From NCBI GenBank assembly GCA_000004985.1, contig GG739390.1: DNA of 1,534 nucleotides. The stretch is one strand, 5' to 3'. Below are positions 1-1,534 of the stretch, one piece after another; position 1 is the stretch's first letter, and each line of letters starts with the position of its first letter. The notes under the pieces are model-generated. The model worked only from the letters and a program-made list of their open reading frames with translations. It was not told the origin of the DNA and made no database searches. Source of the stretch: Naegleria gruberi. Taxonomy: Eukaryota. Position numbers and translations under genes: made by a program.

Positions 1-273
1 CAATTCATCCATCATTAGATAGGACCATACCCTCTCTAGATAATCCCAATTCTGTCCCACTCCATTCCTAATGCATGGAGCAAGATTTAGAAAACATTGA
101 TTTTCGTGAGAAATTTGATTTCCCATGTAAAATTCTCTCGACTCGGCTCCGAACATTTCTGGTTTGATTTTCTGTTTGCCGACCATTGAAGAAATGACAA
201 TGGATGGCTTTTCATCACTGGAAAATCCTGATTTGATAAGAGAGCTGCCGTTATCAATAATAATTGCTGTCAT
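1..273 (-). CDS. ARP6: Actin-related protein, Arp6-like (N-terminal 91 aa only; the gene continues beyond the left edge of the window)
   Basis: Reverse-complement translation of 273..1 gives MTAIIIDNGSSLIKSGFSSDEKPSIVISSMVGKQKIKPEMFGAESREFYMGNQISHENQCFLNLAPCIRNGVGQNWDYLERVWSYLMMDEL with no stop codon. The IIDNGS(S/G)xxKxGF segment is the actin-fold phosphate-1 loop (actin has VIDNGSGMCKAGFAGD). The NWD...VW motif matches actin's NWDDMEKIWHH block. From memory, the start and the inserted segment resemble Arp6 more than actin: human ACTR6 begins MTTLVLDNGAYNAKIGYS and later has ...ANQIDEI...LP...G..VNWDVQRQVWDYLF, against ...GNQISHE...LAP...G..QNWDYLERVWSYLM here. The ATG at 273-271 is the first in-frame ATG after in-frame stops at 361-363 and 379-381. 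A run of eight A (sense strand) sits directly upstream. The plus strand of 1-273 is not C-depleted, as expected for the antisense of a coding region. Assignment to the Arp family is confident. The Arp6 subfamily call rests on recalled homologue sequences and needs a database check. Confidence 0.8.
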   Translation of the reverse strand, partial: MTAIIIDNGSSLIKSGFSSDEKPSIVISSMVGKQKIKPEMFGAESREFYMGNQISHENQCFLNLAPCIRNGVGQNWDYLERVWSYLMMDEL

Positions 274-420
274 TTTTTTTTGTAAAGTTTTTAAAAGATT
301 TGATTGGATATGAATGAGAATGAGATGATGAATAATATTATTGAGAAAATGGAGGAGATTTTAATGGAAATGGGATGGTTAGTTGTAAGAAAGTGGTAGA
401 AGGTCAGTATTTTCATAAAT
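274..420 (-). promoter_or_regulatory. Proximal promoter and 5' leader of the Arp gene: an A8 tract abutting the ATG, then a pyrimidine-rich (CT) sense-strand block
   Basis: On the minus (sense) strand the sequence directly 5' of the ATG is aaatcttttaaaaactttacaaaaaaaa-ATG. This is an A-rich leader of the kind seen in budding-yeast genes. Further upstream the sense strand is almost purely pyrimidine plus A (ctccattttctcaataatattattcatcatctcattctcattcat). Yeast core promoters typically have a T/pyrimidine-rich stretch upstream of an A-rich TSS and leader. No canonical TATAAA is present in this interval. Confidence 0.45.
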
Positions 421-746
421 TTCGAATTGGATTTGAATTCTGCCAAGTGCGCTTTCTCTAATGACGAGAAGGGATTGTTCATCGAGTGTCATTAAGGTTT
501 GATTGGTTGAATCTATGAATGATATGTTGGAAATAACACAATTCGTTGGGATGTTCCACTTTTCCTTAATTTTTTGTTTGAAAATTGACATTGACATGAG
601 CTCTTCTTTGGTAAACCCAAATAATCTTTGTTGGTTGTGAAAGTTTAGCTGGATGGGAATGATTTGAGGTCGATTCATTGGTGGTTGAGGCGTATGAATG
701 ATTGGATTCGGATAGGCCAGTTGTTGGTTTGGAATCATTGGACGAA

Positions 747-769
747 TATGGAAGATTGTCATAATTATG
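747..769. repeat. Left arm of a 23-24 nt inverted repeat (tatggaagattgtcataattatg) ending in the perfect palindrome cataattatg
   Basis: The reverse complement of 1271-1294 is tatgggaagattgtcataattacg. Against 747-769 this is 23/24 identity with one extra g and one t/c difference. 760-769 (cataattatg) is its own reverse complement. Confidence 0.85.
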
Positions 770-796
770 TGGGGGTGGGTGGGTCGTGAAAAAAGG
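770..796 (+). repeat. G-rich box A (tgggggtgggtgggtcgtgaaaaaagg), directly repeated at 1243-1270
   Basis: It shares the 10-mer tgggtgggtc (776-785 and 1248-1257) and 11/12 of g[g/t]tgggtgggtc with box B. The next part holds the same material in permuted order: gtga+A6+gg in A versus A5+gtga+ggg in B. The G tracts are G5, G3, G3 and GG. Confidence 0.75.
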
Positions 797-800
797 ATGT

Positions 801-814
801 CCATAATTACGTGG
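801..814. repeat. Third copy of the TAATTA-core motif (ccataattacgtgg)
   Basis: cataattacg at 803-812 is the exact reverse complement of cgtaattatg at 1271-1280 and differs by 1 nt from cataattatg at 760-769. Each copy is preceded by tgtc or gtcc. The copy lies 5 nt after G-box A. Confidence 0.7.
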
Positions 815-830
815 TCCAGAGTGGGTCAGA

Positions 831-872
831 AAGTAGAGCAGAGCAAAAAACAAAAATTGGCAAAAGTAGAGC
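831..872 (+). repeat. Direct 10-mer repeat aaagtagagc (831-840 and 863-872) flanking an A-rich spacer
   Basis: Seen directly in the sequence: agaaagtagagcagagcaaaaaacaaaaattggcaaaagtagagcc. Confidence 0.6.
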
Positions 873-1128
873 CGAAGGTTTATTAGCCAAGAGTGAGACA
901 GCGTTCAAAGTATCAATTATCACTTGGTCTTCTAGCAACAAGTAATTCGGGGTTCTTGATTTTTTGTGTACCAACAACTTTGGGCAGGCATTCATCTAGA
1001 TTGTTATGGTTGAATGTGCTATGGCTGATGTGGAAGGAAGCAAAGGGAGAACTCTCCTCCTGGTGGTACTGATGAAGGTTGGTAGTTAGCAGGGTGGTGA
1101 TGAAATCATGAGTAATTGTTGTTTGTTG

Positions 1129-1150
1129 TTTTTTTTTGTTGAATATATAA
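1129..1150. promoter_or_regulatory. Poly(dT) T9 tract (1129-1137) followed by a canonical TATA box TATATAA (1144-1150)
   Basis: The sequence is ttttttttt g tt gaa TATATAA cgg. TATATAA is the consensus yeast TATA element. An adjacent poly(dA:dT) tract is a classic nucleosome-excluding promoter element. Orientation cannot be determined from the sequence. The nearest known start codon (ARP6, 273) is about 870 bp away on the minus strand, so this may serve a divergent, upstream or non-coding transcript. Confidence 0.4.
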
Positions 1151-1242
1151 CGGTCAGAACATTCAACTTTCAGCGGTAACATGCTGGTAGTGTGAAAAAA
1201 CTCACATGTAGTGGCCAGGATTTGTTGGGACGATCTTACAGT

Positions 1243-1270
1243 GAGGTTGGGTGGGTCAAAAAGTGAGGGT
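1243..1270 (+). repeat. G-rich box B (gaggttgggtgggtcaaaaagtgagggt)
   Basis: This is a direct-orientation copy of box A. It lies immediately 5' of the right inverted-repeat arm, whereas box A lies immediately 3' of the left arm. So the G-box keeps plus orientation while the arm is inverted. Confidence 0.75.
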
Positions 1271-1294
1271 CGTAATTATGACAATCTTCCCATA
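1271..1294. repeat. Right arm of the inverted repeat (cgtaattatgacaatcttcccata)
   Basis: Its reverse complement matches 747-769 (see the left-arm feature). The arms are about 500 bp apart. No target-site duplication was seen in the flanks (gaa|tatgg on the left, ccata|aaaac on the right). Confidence 0.85.
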
Positions 1295-1295
1295 A

Positions 1296-1534
1296 AAACT
1301 ATCACCATTTGTCTCTAATCAATTTGTTACTCTTTTTATTATAATCTATGAAGAACAAATAACTTTGTAGTTGTTTTTTTTAAAAGGTGTTAGGGTTTTT
1401 CAGAATAATAAAAGAGGTTTTCTTGATGAATTAAAAAATGTGTTTGATGTGTTGGTATTTTTGTAATAACTATCAATAAGAAATTACATTTCAATTTATG
1501 AAATAAACTTTATTTCATATTATGGTTATTTACC
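1296..1534. other. ORF-free AT-rich spacer with AATAAA/TTTATT-type words and a T8 tract (1374-1381). Probably the 3' flank or terminator of a neighbouring gene, or distal promoter sequence.
   Basis: There are stops in all six frames every few codons. aataaa occurs at 1404-1409 and 1501-1506, and tttatt at 1326-1331 and 1511-1516. The G>C skew of the preceding kilobase ends at about 1280-1290, exactly at the right inverted-repeat arm. Confidence 0.3.

What the first reader, a model, noticed from the sequence alone, without database searches (positions are those of the whole stretch)
290..1285. About 1 kb of noncoding DNA with strong G>C strand asymmetry that leaves the ARP6-sense strand nearly stop-free
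In 120-nt blocks across 601-1200 the plus strand has 30-41 G but only 12-20 C. Positions 291-420 contain just 2 C. The ARP6 coding part (1-273) does not show this bias. The G-poor minus strand can form almost only TAA stops, which explains four overlapping ORFs of 62-141 codons in all three frames. A skew this sustained has several possible causes. It could be the remnant of a low-complexity (N/Q/H/P/S/T-rich) coding gene on the minus strand that has since accumulated frameshifts. It could be a transcribed non-coding unit with transcription-coupled mutational bias. It could also be a purine/GT-rich structural element such as a G-strand-like region.
Basis: partly seen in the sequence, partly recalled or inferred. 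Interest (0 to 1): 0.5.

Follow-up and report, generated by a model that had tools for sequence, protein, structure and literature searches.

The report
Skewed region is mostly a Naegleria gene
The G-over-C imbalance is real, but the DNA is from the amoeba Naegleria rather than a yeast, and over a third of the supposedly noncoding kilobase is the intact end of a protein-coding gene, so most of the finding is ordinary.

Summary
The skew is real: 290-1285 has 273 G and 109 C on the plus strand (p=2e-17). The description around it is largely wrong.

- **Coding, not noncoding.** Minus-strand 750->382 encodes 123 residues, 97% identical and gap-free, to the C-terminus of Naegleria gruberi predicted protein XP_002678854.1 (437 aa, N/Q/P-rich). 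The window is therefore Naegleria, not yeast.
- **Source of the skew in that exon.** It comes from an I/Q/L/P/N-rich composition plus avoidance of G-ending codons.
- **Spacer.** Plus strand 272-404 has no C for 133 nt, so the sense strand is G-less. This tract runs from the end of that gene to the start of the actin-like gene.
- **Stop codons.** The count of 39 matches what composition predicts (43.5±4). TGA, not TAA, is the commonest stop.
- **Unexplained part.** Homology to the Naegleria protein ends exactly at 750. That is the outer end of a perfect 18-nt inverted repeat (750-767 / 1273-1290) enclosing a 541-nt segment. The segment has no homologue, no Rfam match and no target-site duplication. 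It carries two over-represented motifs.

Overall the finding is ordinary, with one loose end.

The parts
1..273 (-). First 91 codons of an actin-family protein, with ATG at 273-271. The 'ARP6' label is not verified.
   Evidence: Pfam Actin E=3.4e-16. The best PDB matches are conventional actins at E about 1e-15.
272..404 (.). A 133-nt tract with no C on the plus strand, so the sense strand is G-less. It covers the last 23 nt of the upstream coding sequence, its stop codon, the 105-nt gap between the two coding sequences, and the first two bases of the actin-like ATG.
   Evidence: this is the longest C-free run, and 0 of 5000 shuffles reached 133 nt; 274-381 has G27 and C0.
379..381 (-). TAA stop codon of the upstream gene.
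   Evidence: The P0001 alignment ends at its last residue at 382.
382..750 (-). Coding sequence of 123 codons that matches residues 315-437, the C-terminus, of Naegleria gruberi XP_002678854.1 (NAEGRDRAFT_48002).
751..825 (-). In-frame open extension upstream of the homologous part. It has possible start codons at 804-802 and at 762-760; the second lies inside repeat arm 1.
   Evidence: It has no similarity to P0001.
750..767 (+). Inverted-repeat arm 1, GGAAGATTGTCATAATTA. Its outer end coincides with the end of the protein homology.
   Evidence: pair I1: 18 nt, 100% complementary. The boundary is and the alignment.
1273..1290 (+). Inverted-repeat arm 2, TAATTATGACAATCTTCC.
768..1272 (.). The 505-nt interior between the arms. 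GC is 42.6% and G149 to C66. It holds open minus-strand stretches 1275->916 (extending just past the interior) and 995->810. It has no homologue.
   Evidence: Composition is. No homologue was found, no Pfam or PDB match, and no Rfam match. The AlphaFold2 model of 916-1275 has pLDDT 34.6.
760..811 (+). Motif cluster 1. It holds palindromic CATAATTATG (760-769) and CATAATTACG (802-811), with GGGTGGGTC (777-785) between them. GAGTGGGTC follows at 819-827.
   Evidence: 3 matches to CRTAATTAYG against 0.01 expected; 3 exact GRGTGGGTC matches. One search lists the repeat as D1.
1237..1280 (+). Motif cluster 2. It holds GGGTGGGTC (1249-1257) and CGTAATTATG (1271-1280). It is a direct repeat, about 45 nt long, of 765-811.
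1291..1534 (.). AT-rich flank (GC 22%) with stops in every frame, no significant skew, and no similarity to P0001.

Best explanation
The 1-kb 'noncoding' block is three different things laid end to end on the minus strand of a Naegleria gruberi-like genome.

1. 750->382 is real coding sequence. It is the last 123 codons of a homologue of predicted protein XP_002678854.1. Its sense strand is G-poor because the protein is rich in I, Q, L, P and N and has few residues whose codons start with G (G, A, V, D, E), and because G-ending codons are avoided.
2. 404->272 is a G-less tract. It spans the end of that gene and the very short spacer that must hold its 3' untranslated region and the actin-like gene's promoter and leader.
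3. 750-1290 is a 541-nt segment bounded by a perfect 18-nt inverted repeat, with the same G>C sign and of unknown nature. I infer that it is the upstream or rearranged flank of a copy of the gene that lacks its 5' part.

The overlapping minus-strand ORFs outside the homologous exon are mainly a by-product of G-poverty.

Shown: the homology, the composition and the repeat. Inferred: the role of the spacer and the origin of the 541-nt segment.
For: - One search found one hit at E=4e-69, and one search gave 119/123 identity with no gaps across 750->382, ending at the protein's last residue next to a TAA stop.
- One search identifies the hit as XP_002678854.1, EFC46110.1 and D2VAP2 of N. gruberi.
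- The window GC of 35.5% matches the 35% reported for N. gruberi (PMC9928731).
- In one search the exon has G95 and C41. I, Q, L, P and N make up 63 of the 123 residues. G is rare at fourfold-degenerate sites in both genes (5 of 43 and 2 of 32). The spacer has G27 and C0.
- In one search the stop count of 39 is within the shuffle expectation of 43.5±4.1.
- Rfam gave no match, and RNA folding z-scores are only -1.9 and -1.6.
Against: - 751-1290 is unexplained, yet it is as skewed (+0.37) as the exon.
- Stops cluster somewhat more than composition predicts. The longest open stretch of 148 codons has P about 0.03. The top four stretches summed have P of 0.0015 or less. Crossing 290-1285 needs 5 frame switches against 8.9±1.9 in shuffles (P 0.03-0.055). 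Part of this signal is simply the real exon.
- The copy in the window lacks the 314 N-terminal residues of the reference protein, so whether it is expressed is unknown.
- The identification rests on a single database protein.
- An exhaustive phmmer search with the 141-aa ORF found nothing, although the later hit shows a 97% relative exists. Negative results from these libraries are therefore weak.
Confidence: 0.65

Rival explanations
1. The inverted-repeat-bounded 541-nt segment (750-1290) is a non-autonomous DNA transposon, or the scar of a transposon-mediated rearrangement. It cut off the 5' two-thirds of a copy of the NAEGRDRAFT_48002-like gene. Its arm supplies an in-frame ATG (762-760) for a short protein holding only the C-terminal domain. 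This would add to the best explanation rather than replace it.
For: - The arms are a perfect 18-nt inverted repeat (21 of 22 with one indel) 505 nt apart. My estimate of the chance expectation in 1.5 kb is about 2e-5.
- The protein homology stops within 2 nt of the outer end of arm 1. My estimate for that coincidence is about 0.02.
- The size is typical of a miniature inverted-repeat element.
- The in-frame ATG inside the arm is seen.
- Missing target-site duplications are expected if the junction arose by recombination between two element copies.
Against: - The flanks carry no target-site duplication (TAT versus CAT).
- Homology does not resume beyond arm 2.
- No other copy could be found. 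The only metagenome hits were chance 20-21-nt matches in a gut bacterium, and viral contigs gave none.
- The interior has 42.6% GC and is not palindromic.
- The motifs near the arms also occur in direct orientation, which looks more like clustered binding sites.
Confidence: 0.25
2. The gene is intact here. 751 to beyond 1534 would be a long intron, and the exons for residues 1-314 would lie outside the window.
For: - Homology ends sharply at one point, as it would at an exon boundary.
- 1291-1534 is AT-rich like noncoding DNA.
Against: - The minus strand has no AG dinucleotide between 923 and 651, so there is no splice acceptor at or near 750.
- Any acceptor at 924 or above would run into in-frame stops at 915, 885, 882 and 828.
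- The intron would have to exceed 780 nt.
Confidence: 0.1
3. The whole 290-1285 region is a decayed, frameshifted gene for a low-complexity protein.
For: - Open stretches are longer than composition predicts, and few frame switches are needed to cross the region.
- The minus strand is C/A-rich, like N/Q/P codons.
Against: - The homologous part has no frameshift or stop.
- 751-1534 has no residual similarity to P0001 residues 1-314 in any frame (P=0.3-0.8).
- No other homologue was found.
- The AlphaFold2 model of 916-1275 has pLDDT 34.6.
Confidence: 0.08
4. The skew is a promoter or transcription-linked strand bias of the kind described in fungi and plants, where C exceeds G on the sense strand around gene starts. 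In that case 751-1290 would be a transcribed noncoding leader or upstream transcript.
For: - The sign fits. The sense strand is C-rich upstream of the actin-like ATG, and the skew reverses inside that coding sequence.
- The same pattern is described in PMC3315797 and PMC555766.
- Fourfold-degenerate sites in both genes also avoid G.
Against: - Those papers cover fungi and plants. In PMC555766 the protists sampled showed no C excess.
- The published effect is measured over about 100-200 nt, not 1 kb.
- The minus strand of 805-1290 carries several upstream ATGs with ORFs.
- No transcription data were available.
Confidence: 0.15
5. The region is a G-strand or GT-rich structural element (G-quadruplex or telomere-like), or a structured noncoding RNA.
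For: Local runs such as GTGGGGGTGGGTGGGTC (770-786) and GGGTGGGTC at 1249.
Against: - No site has four G3 tracts.
- The only tandem repeat is (TTGTTGT) x3.9 at 1116-1141.
- Rfam gave nothing below E=0.2.
- Fold z-scores of -1.9 and -1.6 are explained by the 18-bp stem.
Confidence: 0.03

Closest known systems
Naegleria gruberi predicted protein XP_002678854.1 / EFC46110.1 / UniProt D2VAP2 (NAEGRDRAFT_48002), 437 aa, uncharacterised
   Same: The C-terminal 123 residues are 97% identical and colinear, and both end at the same residue before a stop. Both have an N/Q/P-rich composition.
   Different: The window has nothing that matches residues 1-314. There are four substitutions (N/H, Q/K, L/I, F/Y), so the window is not the exact locus that the database protein was predicted from. 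It is a paralogue, another strain, or another haplotype.
[quoted passage not shown] 2005, PMC555766)
   Same: The sense strand is C-rich and G-poor just upstream of a start codon, and the sign changes inside the coding region. Synonymous sites are also affected.
   Different: The organism is a heterolobosean amoeba, not a fungus or plant. The skewed stretch is about five times longer than the published effect, and more than a third of it is coding sequence of a neighbouring gene.
[quoted passage not shown]
   Same: Short perfect terminal inverted repeats enclose about 0.5 kb with no recognisable protein, and the element sits at a breakpoint in a gene.
   Different: There is no target-site duplication and no second copy was found. 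The interior is not AT-rich, and the sequences next to the arms look like clustered motifs.
Beta-grasp (ubiquitin-like, PB1, RA) domains

Membership tests
Coding sequence homologous to NAEGRDRAFT_48002 | Significant colinear protein similarity | tested here: met
   119/123 identical with no gaps, E=9e-85. E=4e-69 against 5.8 billion proteins.
Coding sequence homologous to NAEGRDRAFT_48002 | Open frame through to a stop at the homologue's C-terminus | tested here: met
   There is no stop in 825->382. TAA lies at 381-379, directly after the residue aligned to position 437.
Coding sequence homologous to NAEGRDRAFT_48002 | Presence of the rest of the protein (residues 1-314) upstream | tested here: not met
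   There is no match in any frame of 751-1534. Smith-Waterman scores are within the shuffle range (P=0.3-0.8).
Coding sequence homologous to NAEGRDRAFT_48002 | Transcribed and translated | not testable with these tools
   No expression data were available.
Spliced exon preceded by an intron | AG acceptor at the 5' edge of the conserved exon | tested here: not met
   The minus strand has no AG between 923 and 651.
MITE / non-autonomous DNA transposon | Terminal inverted repeats | tested here: met
   An 18-nt perfect repeat at 750-767 / 1273-1290, or 21 of 22 with one indel.
MITE / non-autonomous DNA transposon | Target-site duplication flanking the repeats | tested here: not met
   The flanks are ...GAATAT and CATAAA..., with no direct repeat at any plausible boundary.
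MITE / non-autonomous DNA transposon | Multiple copies in the genome | not testable with these tools
   No Naegleria genome was reachable. The metagenome hits were chance bacterial matches, and viral contigs gave none.
Fungal/plant 5'-end GC skew | Sense-strand C>G upstream of the start codon, reversing in the coding region | tested here: met
   274-381 has G27 and C0 on the plus strand. 1-273 has G45 and C59.
Fungal/plant 5'-end GC skew | Genome-wide property of the organism | not testable with these tools
   Only this window was available. The published surveys do not include Naegleria.
Frameshifted pseudogene of a low-complexity protein | Homology that continues across different reading frames | tested here: not met
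   The homology is a single-frame match. No other frame scores above shuffles.
Structured noncoding RNA | Match to a known family, or folding energy well below shuffles | tested here: not met
   Rfam's best E is 0.2, far below gathering scores. Fold z-scores are -1.9 and -1.6.
ARP6 (label given to 1-273) | Closer to Arp6 than to actin or other actin-related proteins | tested here: inconclusive
   The only Pfam hit is the general Actin family. The top 60 PDB matches are all conventional actins. The word-index search found no homologue.
Beta-grasp fold (PB1 / RA / ubiquitin-like) | Confident structural match | tested here: inconclusive

The most novel reading that the evidence does not exclude
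The 541-nt segment bounded by the perfect 18-nt inverted repeat is a previously undescribed Naegleria mobile element, or the junction of a rearrangement it caused. It removed the first 314 codons of a copy of NAEGRDRAFT_48002. Its terminal repeat provides a new in-frame start codon, and its motif clusters (CRTAATTAYG and GRGTGGGTC) provide a promoter. The result would be a new short gene that encodes only the beta-grasp-like C-terminal domain.
Probability: 0.15. Interest if true: 0.45.

Novelty: already known. Interest (0 to 1): 0.2.

Why it matters
The main value is corrective. A stretch flagged as skewed noncoding yeast DNA is in fact a dense piece of a Naegleria genome. There, a gene for an N/Q/P-rich protein, a G-less spacer and an unexplained flank all share one strand bias.

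It also shows that strand skew together with multi-frame ORFs is a usable hint of real low-complexity coding sequence. A further lesson is that negative homology searches in the available libraries can be false.

The one point of possible biological interest is the perfect inverted repeat sitting exactly where the gene's homology breaks. If the repeat belongs to a mobile element, it would be a small example of gene truncation and renewal in a little-studied protist.

Tried and rejected
- **Rfam scan at E<=10**: only chance hits.
- **tRNA scan**: none.
- **Tandem repeats**: only (TTGTTGT) x3.9.
- **Pfam on all ORFs of both strands**: only Actin for 1-273.
- **PDB sequence searches of the three long open stretches and of P0001**: nothing.
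- **Exhaustive phmmer of the 141-aa ORF against 1.84 billion representatives**: zero hits. later showed this to be a false negative.
- **Word-index homologue searches** with the actin-like fragment and with 916-1275: nothing.
- **Exact-protein contig look-ups** for five ORF variants and for P0001: none on record, so no genomic context or reference DNA could be obtained.
- **Metagenome scan with the actin-like fragment**: nothing.
- **Metagenome scan with the 20-mer of the repeat arm**: 48 loci. Nearly all are one gut-bacterial gene start, and every match is by chance over only 20-21 nt (24 nt with one mismatch at most).
- **Viral contigs**: none.
- **Literature search for the motifs and for the protein accessions**: nothing useful.
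- **Yeast-based readings considered before the organism was known:** promoter sites for Rap1, Gcr1, Mig1, Pho2, Pho4 or Abf1, a point centromere, a solo LTR, a long intron with a zipper stem, a telomerase RNA, and a ciliate genetic code. All were dropped.
- **Intron models** joining the open stretches: rejected for lack of AG acceptors and of plausible donors.
- **Codon-position chi-square and periodic-model tests**: too weak, and biased by choosing open frames, to count as evidence.
- **afdb50 fold library**: not available.

Full report
**Observation.** The plus strand of 290-1285 has 273 G and 109 C (binomial p=2.4e-17), while A and T are balanced. 291-420 does hold only 2 C. The actin-like coding part 1-273 has the opposite sign (G45, C59).

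The skew is patchy. It is very strong in 301-400, 651-800 and 1001-1150, and near zero in 551-650 and 901-1000. It does not stop at 1285.

Two statements are wrong:
- The three minus-strand frames hold 39 stops, which is what dinucleotide-preserving shuffles give (43.5±4.1). The strand is therefore not 'nearly stop-free' beyond its composition.
- TGA (18) is commoner than TAA (16) and TAG (5).

Stops are, however, somewhat clustered:
- The longest open stretch, 148 codons, is reached by about 3% of shuffles.
- The sum of the four longest stretches is reached by 0.15% or fewer.
- Crossing 290-1285 needs 5 frame switches against 8.9±1.9 in shuffles, P=0.03-0.055.

**What it is.** Early searches were all negative. 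These were Pfam, Rfam, PDB sequences, an exhaustive phmmer of the 141-aa ORF against 1.84 billion representatives, word-index searches, exact-protein look-ups and metagenome scans.

On the yeast assumption, I found that the fungal literature describes a sense-strand C excess around gene starts (PMC3315797 and PMC555766). That fits the sign change at the actin-like ATG.

The decisive result came from the last homologue search. I queried with all minus-strand open stretches joined together. It returned one protein at E=4e-69: a 437-aa 'predicted protein' of Naegleria gruberi, with accessions XP_002678854.1, EFC46110.1 and D2VAP2 for NAEGRDRAFT_48002.

Local tblastn then placed its residues 315-437 on window 750->382, minus strand. 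The match has 119/123 identities, no gaps, E=9e-85, and ends at the protein's last residue next to the TAA at 381-379.

Three conclusions follow:
- The window is therefore from a Naegleria gruberi-like genome, not a yeast. Its GC of 35.5% matches the 35% reported for N. gruberi (PMC9928731).
- 382-750 is coding sequence.
- The four conservative substitutions show that the window is not the exact locus the database protein was predicted from.

One search's zero hits must be a false negative of that library. The other negative searches should therefore be read with caution.

**Source of the skew.**
- In the exon (G95, C41 on the plus strand), I, Q, L, P and N make up 63 of the 123 residues. Residues whose codons start with G are rare.
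- At fourfold-degenerate sites G is the rarest base both in this gene (5 of 43) and in the actin-like gene (2 of 32).
- The two coding sequences lie only 105 nt apart. A 133-nt tract (272-404) has no C at all on the plus strand, so the sense strand is G-less. None of 5000 shuffles reached this length.
- These two parts account for 291-750.

**The unexplained part.** Homology to the Naegleria protein stops at 750, within 2 nt of the outer end of a perfect 18-nt inverted repeat (750-767 / 1273-1290). With one indel the repeat extends to 21 of 22.

The enclosed 541 nt has 41.6% GC, like coding DNA, whereas the flank 1291-1534 has 22%. Its skew is +0.37. It has no similarity to the missing 314 residues in any frame (P=0.3-0.8), and no other homologue, Pfam, PDB or Rfam match.

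Inside it, near the arms, two motifs are strongly over-represented:
- The palindrome CRTAATTAYG occurs three times against 0.01 expected.
- GRGTGGGTC occurs three times exactly.
- Together they form a direct repeat about 45 nt long, 765-811 versus 1237-1280.

Arm 1 contains an ATG (762-760) in frame with the conserved exon, and another lies at 804.

An intron is unlikely here. The minus strand has no AG between 923 and 651, and in-frame stops lie at 915, 885, 882 and 828.

A transposon reading fits the arms, the size and the breakpoint. It lacks a target-site duplication, and its copy number could not be tested because no Naegleria genome was reachable.

RNA folding of 740-1300 is barely better than shuffles (z of -1.9 and -1.6), and that is explained by the 18-bp stem.

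**Verdict.** The skew is real, but the region is not a single noncoding unit. It is a real exon of a gene for an N/Q/P-rich protein, then a G-less spacer between genes, then a 541-nt repeat-bounded flank of unknown origin.

Nothing here is surprising for a gene-dense protist genome, where 57.8% is coding (PMC9928731). The one exception is the inverted repeat at the homology breakpoint, which deserves a ten-minute BLAST against the Naegleria assembly.

Noticed in passing
window 750-767 and 1273-1290: A perfect 18-nt inverted repeat lies 505 nt apart, and its outer end at 750 coincides with the point where similarity to the Naegleria protein stops. Each arm contains ATGACAATCTTCC, that is, an ATG reading outward.
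   Followed up: partly
window 760-827 and 1237-1280: There are three copies of the palindrome CRTAATTAYG and three of GRGTGGGTC, arranged as a direct repeat about 45 nt long. They could be binding sites, but no known motif was matched.
   Followed up: partly
window 272-404: A 133-nt run has no C on the plus strand, so the sense strand is G-less. It spans the end of one gene, the 105-nt gap between the coding sequences, and the first two bases of the next gene's start codon.
   Followed up: partly
window 651-922, minus strand: There is no AG dinucleotide for about 270 nt, so no canonical splice acceptor is possible upstream of the conserved exon.
   Followed up: yes
window 379-804 (141-aa ORF); The exhaustive phmmer search of 1.84 billion representatives returned zero hits for an ORF that is 97% identical over its last 122 residues to a protein in the other library. 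Negatives from that library are therefore unreliable, at least for eukaryotic proteins.
   Followed up: yes
window 1-273: The actin-family fragment matches conventional actins best, and by eye it looks more like Arp1 than Arp6. No homologue was retrieved, even though the N. gruberi proteome is in the database, so the gene may be unannotated or absent in the reference.
   Followed up: partly
window 382-690, minus strand (ORF residues about 45-135): The conserved C-terminal domain is modelled as a beta-grasp-like fold (strand-strand-helix-strand-strand-strand). Its sequence pattern recalls PB1 domains, but this is not significant by any search.
   Followed up: partly
window 1116-1141: A short imperfect microsatellite, (TTGTTGT) x3.9.
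   Followed up: no
loci L001-L048 (human-gut and other metagenome contigs): The 20-mer GGAAGATTGTCATAATTATG occurs by chance at the ribosome-binding site and start of a common gut-bacterial gene whose product begins MLLAIDIGNTH. It is unrelated to the window beyond 21-24 nt.
   Followed up: yes
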